64,000 bases of DNA from Myxococcota bacterium (GTDB lineage Bacteria; Myxococcota_A; SURF-8; G963663525). Position numbers and translations under genes: made by a program. The notes beneath the pieces are model-generated. The model was not told the origin of the DNA and made no database searches. It worked only from the letters and a program-made list of their open reading frames with translations. The stretch covers positions 30,609 through 94,608 of the forward strand of contig CAXXVK010000013.1 of assembly GCA_963676915.2 (NCBI GenBank), read 5' to 3'. Shown here in pieces: positions 8,636-53,933 of this stretch (position 1 is its first letter; the number at the start of each line of letters is the position of its first letter).

Positions 8636-10793
8636 ACGAAGGGAATATCTGGAGGCCGCAGCGCGTGAAAGCGCCGAAGCTCTGATGGGTCTGCGCCTGA
8701 GTACGGTCAAAGGCGATTTTGGCAGCCGCGAGCATTATCGGGCGGTTCGTCAGGACGTGCTGGCCGCGTTGACCCATCGGCTGGGTCTGGTCGATGGTTT
8801 TTTACCGGGACCGCTTAAAGACGTAGCCGACATGTGGCCCGAGGATCTCACGTCCGACGAAGTACGCCTGATTCACGAAATCCTGCTCGATCTCGTGCCG
8901 AAACTGGGCGATCCTTCGCAGTTGCAGCAGAACTCGGTCGAGCGCAAAGGGTTCGGGGCGTATTTCACACCGAAAGAGGTGGCCCGAGAGTTGGCCGAAT
9001 GGGCTTTGGAACCGCTGCTGGAGCGATTCGAGAGGGCGGAAGCCTCTGAGCCATACGAAAAATTATGTAAGGATTTCAAGGTGTTCGATCCCTCGATGGG
9101 AACCGGTATGCTGCTCGATGCCGCTCGGGAAACCATCGTGGACCGAATGACGGAAATCCGCGAACTCGACGCAAACGACCCACTGCGAGACGAACTTCGT
9201 AACCTCGTTCATCGAGATGTTCTCCATGGAGTGGATTTGGATGCCGCCGCCGTGCAGACAACGCGACTGGCGCTACGTTTGCGGCCCGGTAAACCTTCCC
9301 TGAGCGATCCGGGTGTTCATTTCTGGGTGGCCGATGCTCTGCGCGACCTCGTGCCGATGAGCGGCGAGTTGCTCGAAACGGCCAAAGCTCGGGATGAGCG
9401 ACGAGGTACGTTTCAGGCGGTGTTGCTCAATCCTCCTTATCTTCCCTGGTGGGTGATTCGAGAACGTCGTCCCGAACTGCTTCGACGCCGTTTCGGACCG
9501 ATGGAATTTCACGCCAGACCGTCCCATAAGGACGCCCATCCCAACGCTTACCTGTTTCACCTGGTTCTTGCGCTCGAATTGCTGGCTCCAGGTGGGAGGC
9601 TTGCGGCGATCGTACCCCAGGAATGGCGTGAAGAGTCCAAAGCGGCACCGTTTCGCGATTACCTCGAAGCGGCTTGTCGTTCGATCAAGCTGCATGTTTT
9701 TGCAGGAGACGCTCAGTTGTTTTCCGCCATGGGTGGACCGGTGGGAACCAACTCGCTGCTGTTGTTCGCAGAGCGAGGCGAGGGACCGGCGAAGGTTACG
9801 GTGGTTCGTCAACAAGGCGAAACCCAGCAAGCCACGCAGGAAAGTCTTGGTGGAAAAGACGACGCTTTTTCGGACTTTTTCGATCTTTTGCCCGAAGAAG
9901 TCGTTCCCCTGCGCGATGGTTTGGCTTTTGCCGTCGGTGGCGGGCATCAGCCGCCGGTGGATGAACTGCCGGACTTCACGTTCTCACGCGAGGAGTTGGG
10001 ACCGATTTCGGAGGACGAACTGTCGTTTTTGTATCCTGCGCTCTCGGATGCGAAAAACATCCGCCGGTACCGTATCGAACCTTCGGAGCGTTTTTGGGCT
10101 ATTCTCAATCCGTTGGGAAATTTCGATTACGCTCGGGAAAAAGCACCGAAGCTGCTCGATGCCATTGCCGCGAGGAAAAATATCTCGGGTCAGGAGGACG
10201 GGGAATGGTGGAAGTTCCCCAACGTAAGGCGGGTTGACGAGGTGTTGAGCCGTCAACCGAAGTTGCTTACGCCTCGTACGGCGGAACACAATTCGTTCGC
10301 ACTGGATGAAAACAAAGGGTATCAGATCAAAGGAACGAACTCCTGGATTCGTCCACGAGGGCGGCATTCGGTGTATTTTCTGCTTGCCGTGTTGAATTCT
10401 TCGGTGTTGGACGAAGCAGGGAACTTGCTGGGGCGCAGTTATCACGGGGGAGGACATCGCCTTTTCACGCCTGCCGAGTTGGGTGTTTTTCCGATTCGCG
10501 ATATCGATTTTCCCGAAACCGCACAAGAAAACGATTTACGGACGAAACTCTGGAAAAAGTGGAAGATACCTCTCGGACAGGGAAAATCCATTGGCGTGCG
10601 GCGGGAAATTCACCGATTGTGCATGGAAACCAATCCGCCATGCGGTTCTTTGGCTGCCGTACATGACGTGTTGGAATTTTTGGCCCGACAGCTCGTCAAA
10701 GCCTATCGGCTCGACGATCCACCGGAACAATTGGTGGATTTTTGCGAATCACTGATCGATGACATTGTTCGTAGTTTGTACCGAGTTCGATAA
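8628..10793 (+). CDS. Gamma-class N6-adenine DNA methyltransferase with TaqI_C-like target-recognition domain (no cognate endonuclease seen)
   Basis: Motif X GAYFTPKEVA, motif I VFDPSMGTGMLL, motif IV LLNPPYL, and a C-terminal YFLLAVLNSSVLD region. The GTG start overlaps the tmk stop (GTGAGTGA). Confidence 0.8.
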   Translation: MSERREYLEAAARESAEALMGLRLSTVKGDFGSREHYRAVRQDVLAALTHRLGLVDGFLPGPLKDVADMWPEDLTSDEVRLIHEILLDLVPKLGDPSQLQQNSVERKGFGAYFTPKEVARELAEWALEPLLERFERAEASEPYEKLCKDFKVFDPSMGTGMLLDAARETIVDRMTEIRELDANDPLRDELRNLVHRDVLHGVDLDAAAVQTTRLALRLRPGKPSLSDPGVHFWVADALRDLVPMSGELLETAKARDERRGTFQAVLLNPPYLPWWVIRERRPELLRRRFGPMEFHARPSHKDAHPNAYLFHLVLALELLAPGGRLAAIVPQEWREESKAAPFRDYLEAACRSIKLHVFAGDAQLFSAMGGPVGTNSLLLFAERGEGPAKVTVVRQQGETQQATQESLGGKDDAFSDFFDLLPEEVVPLRDGLAFAVGGGHQPPVDELPDFTFSREELGPISEDELSFLYPALSDAKNIRRYRIEPSERFWAILNPLGNFDYAREKAPKLLDAIAARKNISGQEDGEWWKFPNVRRVDEVLSRQPKLLTPRTAEHNSFALDENKGYQIKGTNSWIRPRGRHSVYFLLAVLNSSVLDEAGNLLGRSYHGGGHRLFTPAELGVFPIRDIDFPETAQENDLRTKLWKKWKIPLGQGKSIGVRREIHRLCMETNPPCGSLAAVHDVLEFLARQLVKAYRLDDPPEQLVDFCESLIDDIVRSLYRVR

Positions 10794-15628: not shown

Positions 15629-17533
15629 GTGGAGCGGCATTCCCCGATATTCGATACCCTCGAAGCGGTTCGGCGTGTACGACCGTATGCGTTCAGCGAT
15701 TTTTACCGTCGTGGACGACCGGTGCGCCGCACTCCGGAGCCTTCTCCACCTCAAGTATCGTTTCTGCTGCTCCAACGCTGTTCTTTGGGGTGTCGGTTCT
15801 GCTTTGCAGGGTCCGCATTGAAAAGGGGAGGGGAGGTGTCGTTTGCGCGTCTCAAGCCTTTGTTCGATGCCTGCCGTAACGTTCCCCGCGCCGTGATGCT
15901 GGGGGGAGAACCTTTCGAACATACCGAAATTCTTGAGATTTTAGACTATGCGATGCAATGCTTCTCGCAAGAAGTTGAAGTCTATACCAACACGGCGCAT
16001 CTGCCCGATACATTGGACGAACTAAACACCTTCTTGGAAAACCTGGGGGATGGTCAACGCAAACCTCGTCTCGTATTGACCATGGCGCTTGACCGTTATC
16101 ATGCCGAACGCCTGGGAGAAAAACGCTGCCGGGAGCGTGTGCGTCAGTGGTTGGAATTGCGGGAAAAGTACGGTCGCAAGGTGCGTTTCAATCTTACCGA
16201 CGAAGCATTTCAAAGTGAAACTTACCTGTCTCGATTCGCCGTACGAGATGTGCTTGCCGAATTTTCGCCGGAATTGGCCGATTTCTTTTTCTCGCTCGAC
16301 GATGCAAAGGACATCGAAGAGACGTTTTATTTCAATCCGGTGCAACGCCAGGGACGGCGAAAAGCCGCCGACGGTGACTCCGTACCGCTTCGGTTAAGCG
16401 AGATCGCTCGAGGCGGGGATTTGGTGATTGGTCCCGATCTCGGGGACACTTCCGAAACTCCCCCGTTGGCGCTGTTCGATTCTCTCAATTCCGCGTGGGC
16501 CTCGCCGCCACCGGCTTTCAGTCGAGTGGCGCGATTGGAAGGGGAGGGGGCGAAGGATCTGGCGATTGCCGTACGAACGGCCTTTCAGGAAAGGGCGTTT
16601 TTTACGTCAATCGATCAACCTGAATCGGGTGAGGATCAAGTACAAGCCATAGATTTTACGAGAGAATGCCTTGCTTCCATGCGTCTTGCGGCCTCTGATT
16701 CCGCTACTTTGTGGTGCCGTATGGCCGAGCGACTGTTTCGTGTGGCTTGTGATGTTGGGGAACTGACGCCGGAGGCGGCGTCCTGGACTGAAACCCAGCC
16801 GTTGCCTTTGCCTGTTTTGCATGAATTTACGGCATTGTTTATGAAAAACCATCCCGATACCGTGTCGGAATGGATTGCATCGTTTGTCAATGAACGTCTG
16901 GAAGAAACGGGAAGTGGAACCGAACCCTTGGCTCCGGTGCTGGAGACTCAATGGCTCGATCTTGAGGCGATGATTCCTTCTGAAACGCCGATTCGTTTGC
17001 CGATGCGTCACATCTGTATCGATACCGGGTTGGGATATTTTCCCGGTGAAAGCAGCCATCCGTTGCGTGTCGAAGCCTATGTCTTACCTGAACACCGGAT
17101 TCAGTGGCGTTTTCCGGGATTTCGTTCTGCTCGCGAAGGGGAGAGCGCTGCCGGAGACGGTCGCTTGTGGCTACGTTTCTGGAGACTGGTGGTAGGTGAA
17201 GCGTTTTGGCGTGTCGTGGTTCCTGTGTGGCGAGATGCGTTGGTTGATCGATATGGTAAGGAAAATCCAGCGTTGGTGTCGTGGCTCGACGAACTGGCTT
17301 TGGAAGAGGTGCCGGGAGAGGGACTGTACCGGCAATCGAGCCGCGATTCCGGCAGAATGTTTCGCTTGTTGGCTTTCGAACCTCGGCGAGGGGGCATTGA
17401 CTGGATGAACGTCGATCTCCTGCGTGCGCTGCTGAACGATCCTGGCGAAGGATGGGACGCCGACAAACTGGCATTGTTTCTCGACGGTTTGCGGGCGGCT
17501 CTGGATCGGGCCGAACGGAGGAAACAGGCATGA
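15629..17533 (+). CDS. Radical SAM protein with long uncharacterised C-terminal extension
   Basis: CSLGCRFC (CX3CX2C) near residue 51 and the VMLGGEPF GGE motif. About 380 C-terminal residues have no recognisable motif. AAGGAGG lies upstream of the GTG start. Confidence 0.7.
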   Translation: MERHSPIFDTLEAVRRVRPYAFSDFYRRGRPVRRTPEPSPPQVSFLLLQRCSLGCRFCFAGSALKRGGEVSFARLKPLFDACRNVPRAVMLGGEPFEHTEILEILDYAMQCFSQEVEVYTNTAHLPDTLDELNTFLENLGDGQRKPRLVLTMALDRYHAERLGEKRCRERVRQWLELREKYGRKVRFNLTDEAFQSETYLSRFAVRDVLAEFSPELADFFFSLDDAKDIEETFYFNPVQRQGRRKAADGDSVPLRLSEIARGGDLVIGPDLGDTSETPPLALFDSLNSAWASPPPAFSRVARLEGEGAKDLAIAVRTAFQERAFFTSIDQPESGEDQVQAIDFTRECLASMRLAASDSATLWCRMAERLFRVACDVGELTPEAASWTETQPLPLPVLHEFTALFMKNHPDTVSEWIASFVNERLEETGSGTEPLAPVLETQWLDLEAMIPSETPIRLPMRHICIDTGLGYFPGESSHPLRVEAYVLPEHRIQWRFPGFRSAREGESAAGDGRLWLRFWRLVVGEAFWRVVVPVWRDALVDRYGKENPALVSWLDELALEEVPGEGLYRQSSRDSGRMFRLLAFEPRRGGIDWMNVDLLRALLNDPGEGWDADKLALFLDGLRAALDRAERRKQA

Positions 17534-19695
17534 ATCTTCCGAAAATCCGCATTGCAACGGGAGGATGCTCGAATGCTCTGTGTGCCGTTTGCACTCAGCG
17601 GGGGCGAGTGGCTCCCCGACCTGTAAAAGATATTCTGGCCGAAATCGAAAGCGCCGCCGACAATGGTGCGAAGGATATTTACTTCGACGATCACGAGCCG
17701 CTTTCCCATCCTGAAATCAAAGCGATAGTAGCGGCTTGTGTGCGTTATCGGTTGCGTTTTATTCTTGCTGCGAGTGGACGTGTGCCGCTTGTGCCGAGAA
17801 CGCTGGATAATCTTCGAAAACTCGGTTTGAAAGCAGTAGTTTTTCGTTTAGCAGGATTTCACCCGGAGGTGGGGCAACTCGTCTGGGGTGATCGGCGCGT
17901 GGGAGAACATGCCGAAAGTGCGTTGCGGACAATTCTCGATAGCGGGTTGCCTTGTGAAGTGGAATGTCCGGTAACTCCCGACAATCGTGGGACGCTCGAC
18001 CGCAGTCTTCTTGAGCTGGAACGGTGTTTCGGCCTTAAGGGAAGGCTTGTGGACTTTGACGGACGTTTTACCGAAGACATCACCCGTGCGGAGAAGCGCG
18101 TGGCAATCCGGCGGGGTGAAAATACCCCGGTACGCACCACTTGCGTTCGTTTCCATCCCGTAAGGAGCGAGGAAACGTTCGAGCCTTCTCAGTGTCCCTA
18201 TCGTTCACGGGAAGATTCAGGTGAGTATGGTCCGAAATCTGCGTGGATAAGATTTCCCGATGGTTCTTGGAAGCGATTCGAAACCGATGAAGATGTTTCA
18301 CTTCATCTGACGGTGGCCAAAAATCTACGTGGTCGGATGCTGCTCCATGCGTCGGAGAGAACGTTGCCGGTAAGGCTCGACGACACTTGCAAAAGCTGCC
18401 CGCGCCTTGTGCGCTGCGGTGCGGCTTTTGTTCCCGACGATTCCCCGCACGAAATTTCCGACAAATCCGAGGAAGCTTGTTCGGCTCGTTTCGATGCGCT
18501 TCGAGAGGCTTTATCGAAGCATCCCGAGCGGCTGGAGGTCGCGGGAGCGTCTACGGTCTGTCATGCTGTGGAAGAAGGTGCGACGATTCCCGACATTGTG
18601 GAAGAAGCGTCGCTGGAAACCTGGGAAGTTGTCGATATCGCTCGCCAATATGGCTATGGTGTCGTGGATTACGACCTGGACCGCAACGTGTTCGATGGTT
18701 CCTGGCGGCTAGTACTTGGGGAAGATTCGCCCGCTTTGCAACGTGCTCCGGGGGCGCTGGCCGTGTTGCAGCTTTCTTCGGCTTGTGTCAACCGTTGCAT
18801 TATGTGCAGCCTGCCGCAGATGTTCCACGGACAATGGGTGTCCAGCGAACATTCCGTTCGTCTGCTCGAAGAACTTTACTTGTTGGGCTACGATACCTGC
18901 GACATTTTCGGCGGTGAAATAACCTTACGTAGCGATTTCGTCGAACTGCTGCGTTTCGCTAAGGAAATCGGCTTGCGGGCGACCTTCATCAGCTCGGGAT
19001 ACAACCTCGATCGTGCGCGTATCGATACTCTGGCCGAAGCTGGGGTGGACAAATGCACCCTCGCGTTGGATTCCCTCGATCCCGGACTTCACGATGCGAT
19101 CAAGAATCGGCCGGGCATCCACGAGCAAGCCATGCGTGCGATTCGTGCCGTGCTGGACAATGGCCGACTGCCTCTCGAAATCAACACCGTAGTGCTTACA
19201 CAGAATGTCTATGAACTTCCCGAACTTCACAAGGCGTTGGCGAAGATGGGTATCCGGCGTCATCGGCTGTTTTACTGCATCGATGGCCTGTTCGGGATGG
19301 GAGATCCACCCTATCTGACCTACGACCAGGCCTTGGATTTCATCCGGGAGGTGCATCCGAATCTGATGCGCTTGAGCCAAGAGAACGGAACCCTGATCGA
19401 CTGGTGTCCGCCGGTGGAGTTTTCACGACCCATCGAGGAAGAAGCGCGGAGGCTAAGTAAGGGAATTTACACGGATGATAGTGTATCCTGCACGGCTCCG
19501 GGAAAAGAAATCTACGTGATGGTGGATGGTTCGGTGTATCCCTGTGTCAACCCGACGATCTGGCGGCACGAGGCCGTAGGCAAAGTGGGGAGGGATCGAC
19601 TGATCGATATCGAACGCGGCTTCAAAATGCAGGAGTTTTGTCTAAAAGCCGGACATCTTCCCGCTTGTGCCAATTGCATTTCGAAACGAAGCTGA
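17530..19695 (+). CDS. Double radical-SAM-core protein with SPASM/twitch-like C-terminus
   Basis: The ATG overlaps the upstream stop (ATGA, 17530-17533). The N-terminal core is GGCSNALCAVC (CX4CX2C). There is a central CKSCPRLVRC. The second core is canonical, ACVNRCIMC plus FGGEITL. The tail is CTAPGKEIYVMVDGSVYPC ... CLKAGHLPACANC. Confidence 0.7.
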   Translation: MNLPKIRIATGGCSNALCAVCTQRGRVAPRPVKDILAEIESAADNGAKDIYFDDHEPLSHPEIKAIVAACVRYRLRFILAASGRVPLVPRTLDNLRKLGLKAVVFRLAGFHPEVGQLVWGDRRVGEHAESALRTILDSGLPCEVECPVTPDNRGTLDRSLLELERCFGLKGRLVDFDGRFTEDITRAEKRVAIRRGENTPVRTTCVRFHPVRSEETFEPSQCPYRSREDSGEYGPKSAWIRFPDGSWKRFETDEDVSLHLTVAKNLRGRMLLHASERTLPVRLDDTCKSCPRLVRCGAAFVPDDSPHEISDKSEEACSARFDALREALSKHPERLEVAGASTVCHAVEEGATIPDIVEEASLETWEVVDIARQYGYGVVDYDLDRNVFDGSWRLVLGEDSPALQRAPGALAVLQLSSACVNRCIMCSLPQMFHGQWVSSEHSVRLLEELYLLGYDTCDIFGGEITLRSDFVELLRFAKEIGLRATFISSGYNLDRARIDTLAEAGVDKCTLALDSLDPGLHDAIKNRPGIHEQAMRAIRAVLDNGRLPLEINTVVLTQNVYELPELHKALAKMGIRRHRLFYCIDGLFGMGDPPYLTYDQALDFIREVHPNLMRLSQENGTLIDWCPPVEFSRPIEEEARRLSKGIYTDDSVSCTAPGKEIYVMVDGSVYPCVNPTIWRHEAVGKVGRDRLIDIERGFKMQEFCLKAGHLPACANCISKRS

Positions 19696-42516: not shown

Positions 42517-42693
42517 AATTCATGAAGTATCACTGCGACTTGAAAATCCTCGATCTTTCACTTGTTTCCCGATTTTCATCCTCCACAGACTGAAAAGGTT
42601 GCCTGCGGGTGAAAAACGCTCTAACTTTGAGAAAAGACTACGGTTTTCGGCCTATCGCTACGATTCTCATGAATTATACGGGCTAGGGAATCG
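42517..42693. repeat. Intergenic element 'family 2', copy B
   Basis: Aligns with 28320-28496. Its right end overlaps the stop codon (42683-42685) of the upstream minus-strand gene. Confidence 0.7.
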
Positions 42694-44767
42694 TGCGAAA
42701 ATCGAGATTTTCCAGTGTTTTCCTTAGTTTCTCGGTATTCACCAATTTTATGATTAACGAATCTGCTCGTTTTATTCGTGAATCCACTTCAGGAAAATCT
42801 TTTTCGTCACACAATTCCGAAAAATAGGAGCCGTAATAACCGAGTTCCAATTGCAGATCTTTTCCTTGAGTGCTGAAACAGAAAACAAGGTGCGTTACAT
42901 TTCTTCGGATGAAGATTTCCAACGCGGTTTTTCGATCGTAAGCATGGATGCCGTAGGCGCTGTTGTAGCTGTTTTCCGATGGAAGTATCAGGATTTCAGG
43001 GGTATCGGGAAATGCCAATATTTGGCTGCCGTACAGGTTCACCGCCACGGTTTCGTTTTTGGGAATATTTTTGCGTACCCACGCTATTGTTTCCTCAGAA
43101 ACCGTGCCGTCGAGCCTGGGAACACCTTTGGTTACGTTATGAACGCCCAAAATGAAAAAGGCTACGGCACAGAGAAAGATTAACCAGTCCAAGAAGTTTT
43201 GCACAGTATGTTCATCGACAACATTGTTGAAGAGGATCACCAACCGTTCTGGAAGTGTTTTTAATGCAAAAGTGAAAGATATTATAAGAAACGGTAGTAC
43301 AGGCAAAACAAAGCGGTTGCATACTTCGTCCAGTCTTGTACTGGAGGCGGAGAAGGAAAACATCAGGAAATAGGCTAAAGGAAAAAGTGTCAATATGAAC
43401 GAGACAAAGGTGCGTCTGCTGATGAACAGAAGCAGAAGATACAAGAAAGCACTTCCCCAATGTCCTAGAGACAGGTTCAATGCCGAATTCGTAGTGTTCA
43501 CAAGTGCTGCAAAAGCCGAAAGGAAAGTGTCCCCCGGTTGTCCTTCCAGGGAATGACCGAGCATGGTTCCTGCAAAAAGGAGATTGCGCAAAGGCAGCAC
43601 AAAACCCAAAAGGGCAATGGTCGTTCCTACAAGAAGGATAGACGATCTCTTTTCGGAATCCCTGTAAAATGCAGATGCAAGCAATAATGCAGCGAAAAAT
43701 ACGTTTATAACGCCGATATACTTTATCCAAAAGGGTAATACGATGCCTATACCAAGGAGTACGGATTGAATACGTCCGGGGCTTTGTCCTTTAGGTAAAG
43801 AAAATACTGTAAAAGCACTGTAAAAGGAAAGAATAGCGAAAAACGTCAACAACATGTCGCCCATGTTTACGACGTGAGAAAATGTCAAAACCGCCGGGAA
43901 CGTAATTAGAAGCCACACGCCGAAAAAACCTGGTAAAGTTCCGGATATCTTTTTAGCAAAGGCATAGGTCAGTGTACTGGTGCCGGAGAAAGCCAACAAC
44001 GAGACAGCCCACCCTGCGATGTACGTTTTAAATCCGATGAGAGAAAAGAAGGCGATGAGCAGGGGATATCCAGGAGGACGTTGGAAATTTCCGCCGAGAC
44101 CGTTTCCGTCCAGTATCTGTAGTGCTTGCCCCAGGTAACCCCAGGATGCCTTGCTCATGGATGGCAGCCCTCGGGTCGCAAGTAGTGCTAAAACCAACGA
44201 AACTCCGAAAACGATTGCCAATTCCCAACGAAAGTGCTTTTTCGAGTCGTTTCGTAAGAAAGTCACCAAAGATGGTACGCATGATGCCAGTGTATGCATC
44301 GCATTGTTGACGGAGCGTATATTGACAAGACTGTTGAACAGAAGAAACAGGAAAAGAATCGGAAACAGATTTTGTAGAAACCAAAGAAGTAAAACATTGG
44401 AAACATATGTTCTTAGGACGATCAAAGAGACTGTGCCGACAACCAGGACCAAAGAACCGGAAAGAAAATGTTTTTGTAGAAAATTTCCCAAAGGACGTCG
44501 CTTGATGGCAAAAACAAGGCAGACCATCACTAAAAGGAAGAAGGTAACGAGAGTGATGTCAGTACCGAAATCGCTTGTCGTTCCATCTTCTGAAAAAATC
44601 CGGAGGAGAGTAAATACAACGTTTTCGGCACTCGAAGCGAGAAATATTGCAAGTGTTCCAACGGCCAACAAACCGGTTGCTTCCGGTTGATTGAAAACCT
44701 TCTCACCGAAAAATTGCACTACTTTACCAAGTTTTCCATCCATGCTGTGGGAGGAATCATCCTTCAT
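42683..44767 (-). CDS. Polytopic membrane protein, GT-C (ArnT/PMT, GT39-like) glycosyltransferase candidate
   Basis: 694 aa with more than 12 hydrophobic segments, a QRPPGYPLLIAFF loop motif and a soluble C-terminal domain. Confidence 0.45.
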   Translation of the reverse strand: MKDDSSHSMDGKLGKVVQFFGEKVFNQPEATGLLAVGTLAIFLASSAENVVFTLLRIFSEDGTTSDFGTDITLVTFFLLVMVCLVFAIKRRPLGNFLQKHFLSGSLVLVVGTVSLIVLRTYVSNVLLLWFLQNLFPILFLFLLFNSLVNIRSVNNAMHTLASCVPSLVTFLRNDSKKHFRWELAIVFGVSLVLALLATRGLPSMSKASWGYLGQALQILDGNGLGGNFQRPPGYPLLIAFFSLIGFKTYIAGWAVSLLAFSGTSTLTYAFAKKISGTLPGFFGVWLLITFPAVLTFSHVVNMGDMLLTFFAILSFYSAFTVFSLPKGQSPGRIQSVLLGIGIVLPFWIKYIGVINVFFAALLLASAFYRDSEKRSSILLVGTTIALLGFVLPLRNLLFAGTMLGHSLEGQPGDTFLSAFAALVNTTNSALNLSLGHWGSAFLYLLLLFISRRTFVSFILTLFPLAYFLMFSFSASSTRLDEVCNRFVLPVLPFLIISFTFALKTLPERLVILFNNVVDEHTVQNFLDWLIFLCAVAFFILGVHNVTKGVPRLDGTVSEETIAWVRKNIPKNETVAVNLYGSQILAFPDTPEILILPSENSYNSAYGIHAYDRKTALEIFIRRNVTHLVFCFSTQGKDLQLELGYYGSYFSELCDEKDFPEVDSRIKRADSLIIKLVNTEKLRKTLENLDFRTIP

Positions 44768-45165: not shown

Positions 45166-45194
45166 TTGACACTTCTGGGGGGGAGGTCTATGAT
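45166..45194 (+). promoter_or_regulatory. Sigma70-like promoter TTGACA-17 nt-TATGAT
   Basis: Consensus -35 at 45166-45171, a 17-nt spacer, and -10 at 45189-45194. The riboswitch P1 starts ~14 nt downstream. Confidence 0.65.
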
Positions 45195-45204
45195 TTGACT
45201 GTTT

Positions 45205-45354
45205 CGTGTTACGGAAAGGGAAGTCTGGTGAAAATCCAGCGCGGTCCCGCCGCCGTAAGTGAGGACGAAACCAGCGTATAAGCCACTGGAACGATGTTCT
45301 GGGAAGGTGCTGGGAGTAGGATGAATCGCGAGTCGGAAAACCTGCCGTAACGTG
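45205..45354 (+). promoter_or_regulatory. Cobalamin (B12) riboswitch aptamer
   Basis: P1 GTTACGG/CCGTAAC, AAAGGGAA, GGTGAAAATCC, GCGGTCCCGCCGCCGTAA, GCCACTGG..CTGGGAAGG and the B12 box GAGTCGGAAAACCTGCC appear in the canonical order and spacing. Confidence 0.9.
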
Positions 45355-45566
45355 TCCCGAGAATGTGTTTCTTCCCGAGGAGGGAGAGCGATTGTCGCCC
45401 AATAGCACAAAACTGACTCGCTTCGAACCGTATTGCAGATAGAACTGTCATCCGAAGGAACCGGTACATTTTCGGGCTAAATTTTTCGTGTGTTCGGTTT
45501 GTAGAAGCTTTTGCGTTCTGCTTGGTGAGTTGTACATTTTTCTGATTTCTAATGAGGAGGTTCCTT

Positions 45567-47327
45567 ATGATGGCGTCACGCTTTTTCACCAGTTTTGCCG
45601 TTCTTGTGTTTCTCTCGTTTGTACTTGCCGGTTGCGGGGGTGATGATGAAGAAACCACCACAAATCTCTGCGAGAACGTAGATTGCTACGACAACGCCAC
45701 TTGCGACACAACAGACGGCTCCTGTGTCTGTGATGACGGATATGAGAACTGGGTGGATGGCACGGGCTGCACTGAAATCGTCACGGATCTTTGCGAAAAC
45801 GTAGATTGCTACGCCAACGCCACTTGCAACACAACAGACGGCTCCTGCGTCTGTGAGGTTGGCTACGAAAACTGGGTGGACGGCACCGGCTGCTCGGAAA
45901 TCGTGACGGATCTCTGCGAAAACGTAGACTGCTACGACAACGCCACTTGCGACACAACGGACGGCTCCTGCGTCTGTGATGACGGATATGAGAACTGGGT
46001 GGATGGCGCGGGCTGCACTGAAATCGTGACGGATCTCTGCGAAAACGTAGACTGCTACGACAACGCCACTTGCGACACAACAGACGGCTCCTGTGTCTGT
46101 GATGACGGATATGAGAACTGGGTGGATGGCGCGGGCTGCACTGAAATCGTCACGGATCTTTGCGAAAACGTAGATTGTTACGCCAACGCCACTTGCGACA
46201 CAACGGATGGCTCCTGCGTTTGTGATGACGGTTACGAAAACTGGGTGGACGGCACGGGCTGTACCGCGATTGAAGACCTGGAAGTCATTGGGGAATTTAT
46301 CGATGATTGGGATACCCGTCATACTGTCGCCAATGATCTGTGGACGATGGGCGAGGGCGACGGCGCGAGCTTGTTCCACATTTCGCAGTATGACAACGAC
46401 GCGATGTGGTTGGTAGCACAGAATGACTCGAACAATGCCTGGAGTGCGGACCTTTGGAGTCGCTTCGACTGGACGTGGTACGAAGGTGAGTTGTGGTACT
46501 GCCAGACGGCTTATGGTGCGGCTACGGAAACGGATGCTGTTGCGACGGCGGCTGCGGATGCAACGGACCCTGCGACGACGGGTTGTGGAAACTACCCTTG
46601 GACGAAGTTGATGCCTTGGCCTGTGCTGGCGTTGGTGGGCGAGTACATCGACAACTGGGATACCCGCAACACGGTGGAATACAATGCGTGGACGATGGGC
46701 GAGGGTGACGGCGCGAGCTTGTTCCACATTTCGCAGTATGACAACGACGCGATGTGGTTGGTAGCACAGAATGACTCGAACAATGCCTGGAGTGCGGACC
46801 TTTGGAGTCGCTTCGACTGGACGTGGTACGAAGGTGAGTTGTGGTACTGCCAGACGGCTTATGGTGCGGCTACGGAAACGGATGCTGTTGCGACGGCGGC
46901 TGCGGATGCAACGGACCCTGCGACGACAGGTTGTGGAAACTACCCTTGGACGAAGTTGATGCCTTGGCCTGTGCTGGCGATTGTGGGAGACTACACAGAC
47001 AACTATGGATATGCTCATTCCATCACCTACGACACGTGGACGATGGCCATGGGTGCCACACCGAGCAATTTTGATATCACGCAGTACGACAATGAAGAAA
47101 TGTGGGCGGTGGCACAGAATTACGCCGACAATCCTTGGAGTGCAGGACTTTGGAGCCGTTTCGACTGGACGTGGCACGAAGGCGAGTTGTGGTACTGCCA
47201 GACGAACTATGGAGCGGCGACGGAAGCCGATGCTTTGGCGACAGCGCCGGCGGATGCTACGGACCCCACCACAACGGGGTGTGGTGGGGCCTATCCTTGG
47301 TCGAAACTTACTGAAATGGAAGACTAA
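45567..47327 (+). CDS. Riboswitch-controlled repeat lipoprotein (5 EGF-like Cys repeats + 3 Trp-rich 116-aa modules), unknown function
   Basis: GAGGAGG RBS 6 nt before ATG 45567 and the signal FAVLVFLSFVLAGC (lipobox). Five copies of LCENVDCYxNATCDTTDGSCVCDDGYENWVDGxGC are followed by three copies of a module with WTMGEGDGASLFHISQYDNDAMW..FDWTWYEGELWYCQ. Confidence 0.85.
   Translation: MMASRFFTSFAVLVFLSFVLAGCGGDDEETTTNLCENVDCYDNATCDTTDGSCVCDDGYENWVDGTGCTEIVTDLCENVDCYANATCNTTDGSCVCEVGYENWVDGTGCSEIVTDLCENVDCYDNATCDTTDGSCVCDDGYENWVDGAGCTEIVTDLCENVDCYDNATCDTTDGSCVCDDGYENWVDGAGCTEIVTDLCENVDCYANATCDTTDGSCVCDDGYENWVDGTGCTAIEDLEVIGEFIDDWDTRHTVANDLWTMGEGDGASLFHISQYDNDAMWLVAQNDSNNAWSADLWSRFDWTWYEGELWYCQTAYGAATETDAVATAAADATDPATTGCGNYPWTKLMPWPVLALVGEYIDNWDTRNTVEYNAWTMGEGDGASLFHISQYDNDAMWLVAQNDSNNAWSADLWSRFDWTWYEGELWYCQTAYGAATETDAVATAAADATDPATTGCGNYPWTKLMPWPVLAIVGDYTDNYGYAHSITYDTWTMAMGATPSNFDITQYDNEEMWAVAQNYADNPWSAGLWSRFDWTWHEGELWYCQTNYGAATEADALATAPADATDPTTTGCGGAYPWSKLTEMED
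45666..46280 (+). repeat. Five in-frame tandem 123-bp (41-aa) repeats
   Basis: CT(C/T)TGCGA(G/A)AACGTAGA recurs at 45666, 45789, 45912, 46035 and 46158. Confidence 0.9.
46281..47324 (+). repeat. Three in-frame tandem 348-bp (116-aa) repeats; units 1 and 2 are nearly identical in DNA
   Basis: Off-frame ORFs 46423-46611 and 46771-46959 translate almost identically, giving a period of 348 bp. The third unit is diverged. Confidence 0.9.
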
Positions 47328-47368
47328 ACAGACCTGATATTCGATGGCACGCTTACCCATCGACCCTT

Positions 47369-47413
47369 GATCCCCCGTAATCTATGACGCAGGTTGCGGG
47401 GGATCCTTTTTTT
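47369..47413 (+). terminator. Rho-independent terminator
   Basis: GATCCCCCG ... CGGGGGATC (9-bp stem, 19-nt loop) followed by CTTTTTTT. Confidence 0.7.
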
Positions 47414-50298: not shown

Positions 50299-53200
50299 TC
50301 AGTCGCCTTCCGAAGGAACATACCCGTTGTCCGCTTTACGCATGGGGAAGCGTGTAACGATGTCCGCCGGGATCGGCAGGATCGTGCGTTTTCCGGGTTC
50401 TGTCTCGCCGGGTTTCATCGAGCCTTTCGCTTCCGGTACGATGGCAATCGGACTTTCTTTGGCAAAGCGTGAAAGTACGTAGGCTTGACCCTACCTGGAA
50501 ACGTCGGGGATCGTAAGCGCAACTCGTAACCACACCGATTACGGTGCCGTTTTTCGCCACAACCGTATCTCCCGGGTGCAAAGGTTTTTCGCCGGTTCGA
50601 TCCACGAGGAAACGGACGACTTCCATCGTGCGTTTTTCGTCTTCGTTGATGAATGCACGACGGCCGATGAAAAACGGCTTGTGCAGTTTCACATACGAGG
50701 GAAATCCTGCTCCGGCGGGGGAGATCTGCTGAGGACCGTTCAGTTCGTGCCCGTACAATGGTAAACCGGCCTCGGTGCGTAAGGAATCGCGTGCTCCCAA
50801 ACCGCAGGCAGCGACGCCCAGAGGTTCGCCGACTTCGAGGAATTTTTCCCAGAGCATGACAAGTTTTTCGGGATGCACGAGAATTTCGTAGCCGATGCTT
50901 TCTCCCGAATAGCCGGTGCGTGCCACGACCGTATCCGCACCTTGCAGCATGACTCGGGTCAGGTGGGTTCGTGGCAGGATTTCCAAAGCGCGGGCCTGTT
51001 TGGGATCGTCGCAAAGCTGCATCAGCACCGGCAGGGACGCCTTTCCTTGGAAGGCGAGATCCACGCGGCGGTCGTCACCCCATTGCGGATCTTTCAGGTT
51101 GCGCAGATCCACTTCTTTCAAGCGTCTACGCGCCGGGATTTCATCGTCGATTTTGACAAGATTCCGGTTCACGGCCTGGAGCCACGACCAGTCTTCGTCC
51201 TCGTTGGAAGCGTTGACCACCATCAGGTAGTCTTCGTCTCCCACATGGTAGATCATCACGTCGTCGATAACCTGTCCCTTGGGGTCGAGCAGGTAGGAGT
51301 AGAAAGACTGTCCGATGGGGAACCAGCGGACGTAATTGCTGGTGACCAGATCAAGGAAATCCGTTGCGCCCGGTCCTCGAATACCGAATACACCCATGTG
51401 CGCCACGTCGAACAGTCCGGCGGTGTTGCGAACGACCTGATGTTCTTCCAGAATCGACGTGTACCAGACCGGCATATCCCAACCCGCGAAGGGAATGATT
51501 TTTTTGGAGTGCTGCTTGTGCCAGTCGTACAGCGGAGTTTTCTTGGGTTCTTCTTCCTCGGCCAGCCAGACGAATTCAGGCAGGGATTTTTGTGCTTCGG
51601 GAGTGTCTTTCAAGCGAAGCTGACCCACGAAATATGGTTTGTAAATCGCGAAAGCTTCCGAATCTTTCTCGTAGATTTCCGCGATATCAAGCACGGGCCG
51701 TTCTTCGGCATCCCAGACCGGCCAGCCCCAGTTTTGTCGTAAACCATTGCACGTTTTGGGACAATCGAACACGAAACCTTGCACCAAAAGCTTTTCTCCC
51801 ACGACTTTTCGTGCCGTTTCGGGCAATGCTGCAACATTCCAGTTGCCATTGACGGAAAGCACGACGGATTCTTCGTCAAGTCCTTCCAAGGCTTTCGTCA
51901 GACTCGTTTCGGCATTTTCCCCGGCAACGAGGAACAGCGACACTTTCTCGTCACCGAACATCGCGAAATCATCGAAGTTTTCGACGACCACCGGACCTTC
52001 CACTTTCATACGAATGTCATTGGGTTCGAACAGCAAATAGCCGTCGGCATGTCCGCGCAGCCATTCGGTGACCTGTGGAACGTTGGGTGGATTGGAAAAC
52101 AGGTAGAATCCGTTGTCGCGTTTGTCGTTGCGTTCTGCGATGCGCTGGACCAACACGTCATCGACAAGCTTACCGTGATTGTCGAACATGTAGGTTCGCA
52201 ACGTTTCGCCGGGAAGCAAACGGCTGAGATCGGCGGAAACGAGGTTGGAAAGATAGGCTTCCACTCGCGGACCGGTCAGACGGAACAAGCATTGTGGGGG
52301 GAGTTCGTGAACCACGGCCTTTGCTTTGTCCTCGACGTTTTTCTTGCAACCGCAACGGACGGGAGTGGAGAAATGATAGTGCGGGTAGCCGTTGGGGGCG
52401 TCGCTTTCCCCGTCTAGAGAAGATGCCAATTCGGCAGTGCGATCTTTGAGTTCCTCCAGGGTTTTCCAGTCGATTTTTCCACGAGGAAGCGTGCCGGTCA
52501 GACCATCGTAATGGAACGGCTCGATGGCCTTGAGCGTACTGGCGATGATCGAGGCCAACTCTTTGATGCCTTCCTCGGTGATGCCTCTTTGGGTGATCCA
52601 CGGAGTTCCCAGTCGTACGCCGGTAGCCAGGGCGGTTACATCGTCGCCTGGAAGTGTGTTTTTGTTGGCTACCACTCCGACCATTTCCAGCATTCTCACG
52701 GCGATTTCACCCAAAAGACGTTCTTTACGGGCGTTGCGGATCGTCTTGAGATCGATCAGCATCAGGTGGGTGTCGGTGCCACCATAGGCTAGCGTAAGTT
52801 CTTCGTTTTTCAACGAATCCGCCAGCAGAGCCGCATTGCTGACGATGTTTTGTTGCAATGTGCGATAGGCCGGAGTCTTGGCGATTTCCAGCACGGCGGC
52901 GATACCGGCGATATTGTTGATATGCGGTCCTCCCTGCTGGCCGGGGAACACAGCCGAATCGATAGCCTGCGCCTTGTCTTCATCGGTGGTGAGGATTACT
53001 GCGCCACGCGGACCCATCAACGTTTTATGGGTGGTGAATACGGTAACGTCTGCATAACCGACAGGCGACGGATACGCACCACCAGCCACCATTCCAGCCG
53101 GGTGGGCGATGTCGGCCATCAGCACGGCACCTACTTCGTCGGCGATTTCCCGAAGTTTCGGCCAGTCCGGTGCGAAAGGATACGAAGTGTAACCACCGAT

Positions 53201-53842
53201 AATCATTTTTGGTCGTGCTTCTTTGGCCAATTGAAGGATATCGTCGTAGTTCAGTCGACCGGTTTTGCGGTCGATTCCATAGGACACGATTCGGTGCTGT
53301 TTTCCGGTGGAGTGGAATTGGCTACCGTGGCTGAGGTGTCCACCCTGCATCAAGTCCATTCCCATCACGGTTTCACCGGGACGAACGAACGCATCGTAGA
53401 TAGCCAGATTGGCGGCAGCGCCGGAAAGCGCTTGAACGTTGGCGAAAATCTCATCTGCCGGAACGGCTTCGTTAGCAAAAGCTTCGGCGGCTCGTCTGCG
53501 GGCCAGTGCCTCGACGAGGTTGATGTAATCCGTTCCTTTGTAGAAACGGCGGTCGGAATATCGCCGATACCCGATAATCTGCATCGGCAAGTCGGCCAGT
53601 TCGTCTTCGTTCTGGTGCGTGGTAAACGAAGGCGGGTAGCCTTCGGCATATAAATTGGTCCACGGCGAATCCAGCAGCCTTCGAGCGGCGGGAAGACAGA
53701 TCGATTCGGAAGGGATCAAAATGATTCGACGTTGCTGGCGTTCTTCCTCTAAACGGGTCAATTGATTCAATATAGGATCGACCCGAGACAAATTACGTTG
53801 AAAAAGAGACTGGAGCGATTCCGAGGATTTACGTGTGGCCAT
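50299..53842 (-). CDS. Fusion protein: serine hydroxymethyltransferase domain + GcvT-like folate-binding domains (one frameshift near the 3' end)
   Basis: N-terminal SHMT motifs are LIPSESI, GGHLSHG and the PLP-Lys motif TTHKTLMGPRG. The C-terminal aminomethyltransferase motifs are TPLYDWHKQH, AGLFDVAHMGVFGIRG and ARDSLRTEAGLPLYGHEL. A middle GcvT/YgfZ-like segment lies between them. The frame shifts at the CCC run 50489-50491, and the alternative frame continues GQAYVLSRFAKE...SEGD*. AAGGAG RBS precedes ATG 53842. Confidence 0.8.
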
Positions 53843-53933
53843 TAAAAAACTCCTTCTAGGGGACATGTTTGGAAACAACAAATTTGGCAAACCAAACAGA
53901 TAGCACCTAACATACTATGGGACGAATATCAAT

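What the first reader, a model, noticed from the sequence alone, without database searches (positions are those of the whole stretch)
45166..47413. Cobalamin riboswitch controlling a single orphan repeat lipoprotein: candidate new surface corrinoid-binding protein
Seen in the sequence: a near-consensus promoter (TTGACA-17-TATGAT) is followed by an RNA with all B12-riboswitch hallmarks. These are P1 GTTACGG/CCGTAAC, GGTGAAAATCC, GCGGTCCCGCC, GCCACTGG..GGGAAGG and the B12 box GAGTCGGAAAACCTGCC. The only gene between it and a terminator (47369-47413) is a 586-aa lipoprotein with an LAGC lipobox. It is made of five 41-aa six-Cys EGF-like repeats and three 116-aa Trp-rich modules. I see no resemblance to BtuB, BtuF, BtuG, cob/cbi enzymes, MetE or NrdAB. 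Established knowledge: B12 riboswitches almost always regulate corrinoid uptake, corrinoid biosynthesis or B12-independent isozymes. Inference: this protein is probably part of B12 acquisition, for example an extracellular capture protein analogous in role but not in sequence to Bacteroides BtuG. That would be an undescribed family.
Basis: partly seen in the sequence, partly recalled or inferred. Interest (0 to 1): 0.72.

Follow-up and report, generated by a model that had tools for sequence, protein, structure and literature searches.

The report
B12-riboswitch-controlled lipoprotein of a new family
A genuine vitamin B12 riboswitch controls one exported lipoprotein built from an uncharacterised small beta-barrel module, and relatives in many other bacteria sit behind B12 riboswitches and beside B12-type transporters, so it is probably a new kind of B12-capture protein, though binding is untested.

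Summary
Rfam finds one cobalamin riboswitch in the window (45174-45363, 91.2 bits against a threshold of 31.5). It lies behind an 11/12 sigma-70 promoter and ahead of a single 586-aa lipoprotein gene (45567-47327) that ends at a strong terminator.

The protein has a lipobox, five EGF-like spacers and three 116-aa Trp-rich modules. The module has no Pfam family and no PDB sequence relative. AlphaFold2 models it with high confidence (pLDDT 96) as an eight-stranded beta structure. Its only fold matches are weak, to lipocalin and avidin barrels.

Of 72 homologous loci with enough upstream DNA, 57 have a same-strand cobalamin riboswitch directly upstream, and four more fall just below threshold. 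Nine lack one but adjoin a BtuFCD-like importer. Seven have a TonB-dependent receptor downstream.

A second unknown domain ("X") is a frequent neighbour or fusion partner. The riboswitch, single-module and X gene order recurs in five independently chosen loci, including cultured Lujinxingia litoralis. The two families are remote relatives of the adjacent Leptospira genes LIC13354 and LIC13355.

The most likely function is corrinoid capture for TonB-dependent uptake. This is inferred, not shown. The window copy is an expanded version that lacks these partner genes.

The parts
45166..45194 (+). Sigma-70-type promoter, TTGACA-17-TATGAT
   Evidence: It matches 11 of 12 consensus positions. Both hexamers are conserved in ortholog L001 while the spacer diverges.
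45174..45363 (+). Cobalamin riboswitch aptamer (RF00174). P1 is 45208-45214 / 45345-45351 and the B12 box is about 45331-45347.
   Evidence: Score 91.2 bits against a gathering score of 31.5, E 2.8e-21, full-length model match 1-189. The region 45201-45399 is 88% identical to the L001 aptamer.
45364..45566 (+). Leader, or expression platform, with mechanism unresolved. It contains a conserved CUUCCC...GAGGGAGA-CGAUUGUCGCC segment (about 45371-45399) and the Shine-Dalgarno sequence GAGGAGG at 45554-45560.
   Evidence: Aligned with L001. No intrinsic terminator is present. The fold is no more stable than shuffled sequence, z 0.66.
45567..47327 (+). Coding sequence of the 586-aa lipoprotein, identical to library protein P0127
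   Evidence: The 594-aa ORF on the opposite strand (45576-47360) has no support and is treated as a shadow ORF.
45567..45635 (+). Lipoprotein signal peptide ending in the lipobox L-A-G-C (Cys23)
   Evidence: Read from the sequence. Of 107 Met-start homologs, 93 have a lipobox within the first 60 aa.
45666..46280 (+). Five 41-aa six-Cys EGF-like repeats, taken to be a spacer or stalk
   Evidence: Pfam hEGF 37.6 bits against a cut-off of 29.3, and EGF_Teneurin 25.8 against 24.3. Tandem Repeats Finder gives 123 bp x 4.9 copies. The repeats are 79-98% identical at the nucleotide level. Homologs carry EGF repeats or acidic D/T/G-rich linkers at this position.
46284..46625 (+). Trp-rich module 1, with the conserved His present
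   Evidence: Module HMM and repeat analysis. AF2 model of all three modules: pLDDT 94.3.
46632..46973 (+). Trp-rich module 2. It is 92% identical to module 1, and the conserved His is replaced by Asn.
46980..47321 (+). Trp-rich module 3, about 58% identical to modules 1 and 2. This is the module that matches LIC13354_fam.
   Evidence: AF2 single-module model: pLDDT 95.9, pTM 0.88, eight strands and one short helix. NCBIfam NF047669 E 1e-9.
47369..47413 (+). Intrinsic terminator that ends the single-gene transcription unit
   Evidence: A 15-bp stem with 8 G-C pairs, followed by a T-run. The DNA similarity to L001 runs through it.

Best explanation
**Shown.** The locus is a single-gene B12-regulon unit: promoter, cobalamin riboswitch, one lipoprotein gene and a terminator.

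**Inferred mechanism.** When intracellular adenosylcobalamin or another corrinoid is plentiful, the aptamer binds it and expression falls. Control probably acts on translation initiation or through Rho, because the leader has no intrinsic terminator. When B12 is scarce, the protein is made, exported, lipid-anchored at Cys23 and held away from the membrane by five EGF-like spacers.

Its three small disulfide-stapled, Trp-rich modules are modelled as eight-stranded beta structures whose weak fold matches are to lipocalins and avidins. They are proposed to bind corrinoids and pass them to a TonB-dependent outer-membrane transporter and then to a BtuFCD-type importer. That would be the role BtuG, BtuH and BtuJ play in Bacteroides, carried out by an unrelated fold.

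**Relation to other loci.** In other genomes a one-module version is co-transcribed with a second unknown exported domain ('X'), and in two of the five loci sampled through domain X also with a TonB-dependent receptor. The window carries an expanded version (three modules, five spacers) without these partner genes in 64 kb.
For: **The unit in the window.** The riboswitch is real and correctly placed. The aptamer and the promoter hexamers are conserved in ortholog L001.

**Riboswitch association across homologs.**
- 57 of 72 informative homolog loci have a same-strand cobalamin aptamer at or above the gathering score. The gap to the start codon is 13-320 nt in 55 of them.
- Four more loci have hits within 2.5 bits of threshold at the same position.
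- In about 470 kb of locus DNA, the only other riboswitch hits are two divergent ones in the same intergenic regions.
- The association holds across different aptamer types: full RF00174, shortened variants and RF01482. It also holds across proteins only 35-75% identical, from Myxococcota, Bradymonadia, SAR324 and rumen MAGs.

**Transporter neighbours.**
- Nine loci with no riboswitch hit adjoin a BtuF-like binding-protein gene: eight head-to-head (six of these also have the ABC ATPase in the sequence held) and L038 with it downstream.
- L074 has the riboswitch, the lipoprotein, the binding protein and the ABC ATPase on one strand.
- Seven riboswitch loci have a TonB-dependent receptor directly downstream.

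**Independent sample.** Loci were chosen through domain X only. All five with DNA (L081, L083-L086) show the order aptamer, one-module lipoprotein, overlapping X gene. Two continue into a TonB-dependent receptor.

**Protein features.**
- 93 of 107 homologs carry lipoprotein signal peptides.
- The model is high-confidence, with two invariant Cys and conserved Trp, Asn, Asp, Arg and His residues.
- A spacer followed by a binding domain mirrors BtuH2 (PMC13616437).
Against: - No binding, localisation or regulation experiment exists for any member of the family.
- The window has no TonB-dependent receptor, BtuFCD, domain X or Rieske partner within 64 kb.
- A 115-aa barrel is small for a 1.4-kDa corrinoid, and no solved B12-binding protein appeared among the fold matches (top 50 rows).
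- The adjacent ABC systems and TonB-dependent receptors score below every equivalog cut-off. They match heme and siderophore models about as well as B12 models.
- The only studied relative of the partner protein, LIC_13355, was reported as a laminin- and plasminogen-binding adhesin (PMC11891782). The best fold match, Tp0751, is also an adhesin.
- The 80 loci were found through conserved-motif patterns and are mostly MAGs with unreliable taxon labels.
Confidence: 0.6

Rival explanations
1. The protein processes corrinoids rather than simply capturing them. With a redox partner, it might handle the upper ligand or the cobalt oxidation state of scavenged corrinoids, by decyanation, dealkylation or reduction, or it might remodel or salvage incomplete corrinoids such as cobinamide before import.
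For: A small Rieske [2Fe-2S] protein is encoded directly downstream on the same strand in L081 and, by sequence clustering, in seven of the 80 loci. The two clearest examples (L002, L027) start with a Tat motif (RRQFLR) and a lipobox. A His is conserved in 87% of modules. The riboswitch evidence is the same as for the main explanation.
Against: The window has no Rieske partner. Most loci lack one. The module has no recognisable catalytic or metal-cluster motif and no enzyme-like fold match.
Confidence: 0.12
2. The protein is an adhesin or contact factor induced by B12 starvation. It would attach the cell, likely a predatory or scavenging Myxococcota or Bradymonadia bacterium, to prey, B12 producers or polymers, rather than binding the vitamin.
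For: The best fold match is the Treponema adhesin Tp0751 (TM 0.57-0.62). LIC_13355, a Leptospira relative of the partner domain, was reported to bind laminin, plasminogen and endothelial cells (PMC11891782). EGF-like repeats are common in adhesive proteins.
Against: Operon linkage to TonB-dependent receptors and adjacency to BtuFCD-like importers point to transport. LIC_13355 is also conserved in saprophytic Leptospira (PMC11891782), which argues against a host-specific adhesin. The Foldseek E-values are not significant.
Confidence: 0.1
3. The protein captures cobalt, another metal or a non-corrinoid tetrapyrrole. It would bind cobalt (B12 riboswitches also control cobalt transporters), heme or a metallophore for a TonB-dependent or type II ABC route.
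For: The neighbouring ABC and TonB-dependent components match heme and siderophore models about as well as B12 models: MxcH 123 bits, IsdE 61 bits, heme ABC ATPase 205 bits. The module has conserved His, Asp and Asn residues. From general knowledge, lipocalin-type barrels are known to bind heme and bilins.
Against: In this survey the family's regulatory link is to cobalamin riboswitches: no other RNA family reached Rfam's gathering score in the 80 loci. Protein-based regulators such as Fur were not looked for. From general knowledge, free cobalt does not normally use BtuFCD-type importers.
Confidence: 0.08

Closest known systems
Bacteroides surface cobamide-binding lipoproteins BtuG, BtuH, BtuJ (DUF4465/IPR027828) and BtuK (PMC12751083, PMC13616437)
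   Same: They are lipoproteins under cobalamin-riboswitch control that accompany a TonB-dependent B12 transporter and a BtuFCD importer. Their binding domains are held away from the membrane by spacer domains: PKD/Ig in BtuH2, EGF-like repeats or acidic linkers here. Genomes carry several copies.
   Different: There is no sequence relation (Pfam; PDB profile). There is no fold relation either: BtuG and BtuK are 7-bladed propellers, BtuJ is a jelly roll and BtuH is a novel globular fold, whereas this module is a ~115-aa eight-stranded beta structure. Other differences are tandem arrays of 2-5 modules and a different set of host phyla. Binding is proven for the Btu proteins and untested here.
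Leptospira LIC13354 family exoprotein (NCBIfam NF047669) and the adjacent LIC_13355 family lipoprotein (NF033170)
   Same: The similarity is remote but consistent. 56 of 83 modules hit NF047669, and domain X hits NF033170 at E 1.9e-14 to 2.2e-12. The gene order, a one-module protein followed by an X protein, is the same as in the Bradymonadia and Myxococcota operons, judging from the consecutive Leptospira locus tags. Both are exported or lipoproteins. The two Leptospira genes are co-induced about 3.7-fold in host-adapted cultures (PMC3953431).
   Different: All scores are far below the family cut-offs (25-54 bits against 120-130). No cobalamin riboswitch has been reported for the Leptospira pair; only btuB and LIC20135 have one in L. 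interrogans (PMC3953431). LIC_13355 is described as an adhesin (PMC11891782). The window protein has three modules plus EGF repeats and no X partner.
Lipocalin/avidin (calycin) barrels, for example Treponema pallidum Tp0751 (PDB 5jk2), the lipocalin LTBP1 and streptavidin
   Same: A small eight-stranded antiparallel beta fold. The best TM-scores are 0.57-0.62 with rmsd 3.8 A to Tp0751, itself a spirochaete lipoprotein. From general knowledge, this is a fold class known for binding small ligands.
   Different: Sequence identity is 7-16% and no Foldseek E-value is better than 0.2. None of the lipocalin or avidin matches is known to bind corrinoids. The Trp-rich LWSRFDW motif and the Cys-Cys staple are specific to this family.
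Surface-lipoprotein or hemophore relays to TonB-dependent transporters (TbpB, HpuA, HasA); this analogy comes from general knowledge
   Same: An exported binding protein that captures a scarce nutrient and hands it to a TonB-dependent receptor encoded in the same operon. TbpB appeared among the weak fold matches of the three-module model.
   Different: The ligands, regulation and domain families differ, and no homology was detected.

Membership tests
Rfam RF00174 cobalamin riboswitch | Covariance-model score at or above the curated gathering score, over the full model | tested here: met
   91.2 bits against 31.5, model positions 1-189 of 189, E 2.8e-21
Rfam RF00174 cobalamin riboswitch | Lies in the 5' leader of a gene on the same strand, between promoter and start codon | tested here: met
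   Promoter at 45166-45194, aptamer ending at 45363, start codon at 45567. The arrangement is conserved in L001.
Rfam RF00174 cobalamin riboswitch | Expression changes when corrinoid binds | not testable with these tools
   This needs a reporter fusion or in-line probing. The expression platform could not be resolved by computation.
BtuG / BtuK (beta-propeller B12-binding lipoproteins) | Seven-bladed beta-propeller domain, or sequence relation to solved BtuG or BtuK | tested here: not met
   No Pfam family covers the modules. The PDB profile search found nothing relevant. The model is three small eight-stranded domains, and no Btu structure appears among the top 50 fold matches listed.
BtuJ (DUF4465 / IPR027828) | Match to DUF4465, with the jelly-roll fold and the loop-6 Tyr motif | tested here: not met
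   No DUF4465 hit in Pfam, no PDB sequence hit and no jelly-roll match in Foldseek
BtuH | The BtuH C-terminal B12-binding domain (PDB 7BIZ) | tested here: not met
   No PDB sequence hit. 7BIZ is absent from the Foldseek lists.
BtuF (Peripla_BP_2) | Periplasmic binding protein fold, or a Pfam PF01497 match | tested here: not met
   No PF01497 hit in the window protein. PF01497 proteins occur as neighbours in 10 homolog loci.
NCBIfam NF047669, LIC13354 family exoprotein | Whole-protein score at or above the curated cut-off of 130 bits | tested here: not met
   38.9 bits for the window protein. However, 56 of 83 single modules match at E<=0.01 and match no other family consistently. This makes it a remote relative, not a member.
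NCBIfam NF047669 / NF033170 gene pair (LIC13354 + LIC13355) | A one-module protein encoded next to an LIC_13355-like protein | tested here: not met
   The window has no domain X at HMM E<=10. The pairing is present in L081 and L083-L086. Domain X is found in or beside 28 of the 80 loci.
Bacterial lipoprotein (signal peptidase II substrate) | N-terminal hydrophobic signal peptide ending in a lipobox [LVI][ASTG][GAS]C | tested here: met
   MMASRFFTSFAVLVFLSFVLAGC. 93 of 107 homologs have one by regular-expression search. No SignalP-type predictor was available.
EGF-like domain | Pfam score above the gathering score, with six-Cys spacing | tested here: met
   hEGF 37.6 bits against 29.3 and EGF_Teneurin 25.8 against 24.3. 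There are five repeats with six Cys each.
Calycin (lipocalin/avidin) fold | Eight-stranded up-and-down antiparallel barrel with a significant structural match to members | tested here: inconclusive
   The model has eight strands and one helix at pLDDT 95.9. The best TM-scores are 0.57-0.62 to the lipocalin-fold protein Tp0751, with lipocalins and avidins next, but every E-value is above 0.2.

The most novel reading that the evidence does not exclude
The Trp-rich module (LIC13354-like) and its partner domain X (LIC_13355-like), usually with a dedicated TonB-dependent receptor, form a previously unrecognised corrinoid-acquisition system. It would be widespread in Myxococcota, Bradymonadia and related uncultured lineages, and would use a new small-barrel B12-binding fold unrelated to BtuG, BtuH, BtuJ, BtuK, BtuF or the transcobalamins. 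By extension, the Leptospira LIC13354/LIC13355 pair, now described as an adhesin and a protein of unknown function, would be nutrient-capture proteins of the same superfamily.
Probability: 0.4. Interest if true: 0.8.

Novelty: new variant of a known kind. Interest (0 to 1): 0.68.

Why it matters
Accessory surface proteins that capture B12 are known in detail only from gut Bacteroidota. This finding points to an unrelated, sizeable family that seems to do the same job in other bacteria, many of them predatory or scavenging environmental lineages. The module family has about 1,400 clusters at 50% identity, and its partner domain has about 2,500 proteins.

If binding is confirmed, it would add a new protein fold for corrinoid recognition. 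It would also show that lipoprotein-assisted B12 scavenging evolved more than once.

It would give a function to two large sets of 'hypothetical' or 'cell surface' proteins. It would also prompt a second look at the Leptospira LIC13354/LIC13355 pair.

The idea can be tested directly. The minimal operon (riboswitch, a 157-aa one-module lipoprotein and a 226-aa partner) is present in the cultured bacterium Lujinxingia litoralis.

Tried and rejected
- **Foldseek with the three-module model** gave only non-significant multi-domain matches. The single-module model gave lipocalin and avidin-type matches with E > 0.2. The fold class is therefore suggested, not established.
- **PDB sequence searches** found nothing for the module (profile search) or for domain X (single sequences).
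- **Expression platform.** The predicted fold of the leader is no more stable than shuffled sequence (z 0.66). The leader has no intrinsic terminator. A CU-rich segment that might pair with the Shine-Dalgarno sequence was examined by eye and did not fit well enough to claim.
- **Exact-sequence lookup** of the window protein's contig found nothing, so the source organism is known only by similarity to a Myxococcota MAG (L001).
- **Partner genes in the window.** Searches for BtuF, BtuC, TonB-dependent receptor, Rieske, domain X and 'gene 4' homologs all found none.
- **First neighbour clustering** (ORFs of 100 aa or more, 50% coverage) missed domain X. It turned up only through a fusion protein.
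- **Literature searches** for this family, using riboswitch with lipoprotein, lipocalin or Myxococcota, found no description.
- **Shadow ORF.** The 594-aa ORF on the minus strand (45576-47360) was considered and rejected as a shadow of the repeat-rich plus-strand gene.
Full report
**1.

A scan of the whole 64-kb window against Rfam gives one hit at or above a gathering score. It is a full-length cobalamin riboswitch aptamer at 45174-45363 on the plus strand, with 91.2 bits against 31.5 and E 2.8e-21.

A TTGACA-17-TATGAT promoter lies at 45166-45194 and matches 11 of 12 positions. The only terminator-like site on this strand is a 15-bp hairpin at 47369-47405 followed by a T-run. Between them lies one ORF, 45567-47327, encoding 586 aa.

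The protein begins with a signal peptide that ends in the lipobox LAGC. Five 41-aa repeats with six Cys each follow, and then three ~116-aa modules containing 28 Trp in 350 residues. Tandem Repeats Finder reports the same repeats at the DNA level: 123 bp x 4.9 copies and 348 bp x 2.7 copies.

Pfam recognises only the EGF-like part and finds no B12-related family. The neighbouring genes are unrelated to B12. They include a divergent PMT_2-like glycosyltransferase, a HEAT-repeat protein, an FG-GAP/ASPIC protein and an SHMT-GcvT fusion. The rest of the window holds housekeeping genes.

**2. What the protein is.**

A search with two modules found 330 relatives. None has a functional name from its source and none has a Pfam family on the modules. 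They come mostly from MAGs of Myxococcota, Bradymonadia, Polyangia and 'Deltaproteobacteria'.

A profile of 83 single modules found 1,432 clusters at 50% identity among 1.84 billion representatives, 1,162 of them at E<=1e-10. The top hits carry 2-5 modules.

Across 255 modules, two Cys are invariant. The conserved positions are G, D, H (87%), W, A, N, N, the motif L-W-S-R-F-D-W, C-Q, A, A-D, G-C and W. Of 107 Met-start homologs, 93 have a lipobox. Between the lipobox and the modules they carry either EGF-like repeats or acidic D/T/G-rich linkers, so that region looks like a variable spacer.

AlphaFold2 models the three-module region at pLDDT 94.3 and a single module at pLDDT 95.9 and pTM 0.88, with eight strands and one short helix.

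Foldseek against the PDB gives no match at E<=0.001. The best superpositions are to the lipocalin-fold lipoprotein Tp0751 of Treponema pallidum (TM 0.57-0.62, rmsd 3.8 A). Lipocalins and avidins or streptavidins come next. A profile search of PDB sequences finds nothing relevant. The module is therefore a new sequence family, modelled as a small eight-stranded beta structure, possibly a lipocalin/avidin-type barrel. It is unrelated to BtuG, BtuH, BtuJ, BtuK or BtuF.

**3. The test that matters: do homologs belong to the B12 regulon?**

A scan of one genome per species returned 168 relatives, and the best 80 loci were kept. Rfam at gathering threshold found a same-strand cobalamin aptamer upstream of the gene in 57 of them. 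Eight loci are cut off too close to the gene to judge, which leaves 57 of 72. In 55 of the 57, the aptamer ends 13-320 nt before the start codon.

A lenient scan adds four hits within 2.5 bits of threshold at the same position, in L012, L014, L017 and L023.

The only other riboswitch hits in about 470 kb of locus DNA are two divergent ones in the same intergenic regions (L005 and L019). That serves as an internal control.

The association spans several aptamer types (full RF00174, shortened forms, RF01482) and proteins only 35-75% identical. This argues for maintained selection rather than a single inherited accident.

Nine loci with no riboswitch hit instead adjoin a type II ABC importer operon. 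Eight have it head-to-head and one (L038) has it downstream. Its components are a BtuF-like binding protein, a BtuC-like permease and a corrinoid-type ATPase. These are the best NCBIfam matches, and all fall below the equivalog cut-offs.

L074 has the riboswitch, the lipoprotein, the binding protein and the ATPase on one strand. Seven riboswitch loci have a TonB-dependent receptor directly downstream. Only L036 and L050 show neither a riboswitch nor an adjacent importer.

**4. A partner domain and an independent sample.**

One family member, P0125, carries an extra C-terminal domain. It is 41% identical (E 4e-30) to the lipoprotein behind the second, divergent riboswitch in L019. This 'domain X' has no Pfam family and no PDB sequence relative.

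Domain X is encoded in 28 of the 80 loci. It is usually directly downstream, sometimes just upstream of the riboswitch, and sometimes fused into the same protein. It forms a family of about 2,500 proteins. NCBI calls some of them 'cell surface protein'.

I then took loci selected only through domain X and contig length. All five with DNA (L081, L083-L086) show the order: aptamer, a 143-380-aa lipoprotein of the module family (one module in L083-L086), then the X gene with an overlapping start. The exception is L081, where X lies upstream of the riboswitch. Two of the five continue into a TonB-dependent receptor and a fourth lipoprotein.

Those receptors are homologous to the ones downstream of the multi-module genes.

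L083 comes from the cultured bacterium Lujinxingia litoralis. This is sequence evidence only. The hallmark motifs are visible in L083.

**5. Link to a named family.**

The window protein hits NCBIfam NF047669, 'LIC13354 family exoprotein', at 38.9 bits (cut-off 130). Of 83 single modules, 56 hit it individually and hit no other family consistently. Domain X hits NF033170, 'LIC_13355 family lipoprotein', at E 1.9e-14 to 2.2e-12 (cut-off 120 bits).

LIC13354 and LIC13355 are consecutive genes of Leptospira interrogans. Both are induced about 3.7-fold in host-adapted cultures (PMC3953431). LIC_13355 is an outer-membrane lipoprotein reported to bind laminin and plasminogen, and it is conserved in saprophytic species too (PMC11891782).

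The pair seen here is therefore a remote relative of that pair, not a member of either family. No B12 link has been published for the Leptospira genes. Only two cobalamin riboswitches are reported in L. interrogans, upstream of btuB and LIC20135 (PMC3953431).

**6. How it most likely works.**

*Shown:* the riboswitch, the single-gene unit, the lipoprotein signal, the modular architecture, and the family-wide linkage to cobalamin riboswitches, TonB-dependent receptors and BtuFCD-like importers.

*Inferred from established knowledge of B12 riboswitches:* expression is repressed when corrinoid is abundant. Only 9 of 46 leaders, and not the window's, have a terminator-like hairpin. The window leader's fold is no better than shuffled sequence. 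Control is therefore more likely at translation initiation or through Rho, but this is unresolved.

*Inferred from context:* the modules bind corrinoids outside the cytoplasm and feed a TonB-dependent route, as BtuG, BtuH and BtuJ do in Bacteroides (PMC12751083, PMC13616437). The EGF repeats would play the spacer role that PKD domains play in BtuH2.

*Tentative:* if the strands form an up-and-down meander, most conserved residues (D9, N49, N53, W60, A87, D94, G102-C103, W109, in the numbering of alignment A2) fall in or next to the odd-numbered loops. Those loops would lie at one end of the barrel, and the Cys pair would staple the long last loop to strand 7. I could not examine coordinates.

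In the window, modules 1 and 2 are 92% identical, and the L001 ortholog has more repeats (813 aa). Copy number therefore varies and the expansion is recent. The window has none of the usual partner genes within 64 kb.

**7. Rivals.**

- *Corrinoid processing with a redox partner.* A small Rieske protein follows the gene in L081 and, by clustering, in seven of the 80 loci. In the clearest examples it carries a Tat motif and a lipobox.
- *A starvation-induced adhesin.* This is suggested by Tp0751, LIC_13355 and the EGF repeats.
- *Capture of cobalt, heme or a metallophore.* The transporter components are not specific by score.

None of these explains the riboswitch link together with the transporter links as economically as corrinoid capture does. 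None is excluded either.

**8. Verdict.**

It is a new variant of a known kind: an accessory B12-capture lipoprotein built on an unrelated, uncharacterised fold, in different phyla, with a second unknown partner family. Corrinoid binding has still to be demonstrated.

Noticed in passing
L019 370-1386 (-); L081 7148-7714; L083 7001-7681; C-termini of P0125, P0133, P0135, P0163 and P0166: A second uncharacterised exported domain of about 200 aa ('domain X') carries the motifs SLGRGGSI, VEVSSDG and GFDLDAV. It has no Pfam family and no PDB sequence relative, and it is a remote match to NCBIfam LIC_13355. It is encoded beside, or fused to, the module family in 28 of 80 loci. In L019 it sits behind its own cobalamin riboswitch. 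The family has about 2,500 proteins, and NCBI names some of them 'cell surface protein'. It is absent from the window.
   Followed up: partly
L002 2293-2733, L027 4339-4779, L081 9151-9612 and similar positions in L011, L037, L041, L049, L052: A small Rieske [2Fe-2S] protein is encoded directly downstream of the module gene in L081 and in seven of the 80 surveyed loci. In L002 and L027 it begins with a Tat motif (RRQFLR) and a lipobox. An exported iron-sulfur partner in a B12-regulated operon has no explanation so far. The window has no homolog.
   Followed up: partly
L084 5723-6732, L086 5783-6747, L048 5866-6648; separately L064 1329-2816: Further lipoproteins without any Pfam family lie in the same operons. 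One follows the TonB-dependent receptor in three loci. Another, of 495 aa, sits between the riboswitch and the module gene in L064.
   Followed up: partly
window 42683-44767 (-) and 45666-46280 (+): The divergent upstream gene is a PMT_2-like GT-C glycosyltransferase (25.4 bits against a cut-off of 26.1). Each of the five EGF-like repeats carries an N-A-T sequon and a Thr-rich stretch. The lipoprotein may be glycosylated by its neighbour.
   Followed up: no
window 50336-53890 (-): A single 1,184-aa ORF combines a serine hydroxymethyltransferase domain (aa 111-449) with a glycine-cleavage T-protein (aminomethyltransferase) domain (aa 787-1058). This is an unusual fusion of two folate-dependent one-carbon enzymes.
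   Followed up: no
window 15629-17533 (+) and 17452-19695 (+): Two adjacent large radical SAM proteins, the second with a SPASM domain. This could be a peptide-modification or cofactor-maturation pair. No B12-binding domain was detected.
   Followed up: no
window 8628-10793 (+): A 721-aa protein matches Eco57I-type and N6 DNA methylase families, so it is probably a fused type IIG restriction-modification enzyme.
   Followed up: no
L004 (contig CALQBK020000289.1) and other locus titles: Several MAG taxon labels are implausible for this family. L004 is labelled 'Bifidobacterium breve' and is almost identical to a freshwater 'proteobacterium' locus (L003). Others are labelled 'Enterobacteriaceae' or 'Rickettsiales'. 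The taxonomic spread read from these titles should not be trusted.
   Followed up: no
L012, L021, L023, L024 (rumen and reindeer MAGs): These low-GC relatives have very short cobalamin-aptamer hits of 61 nt that span model positions 47-167. Their scores lie at or just under the gathering score (29-33 bits). They may represent a minimal aptamer variant.
   Followed up: no
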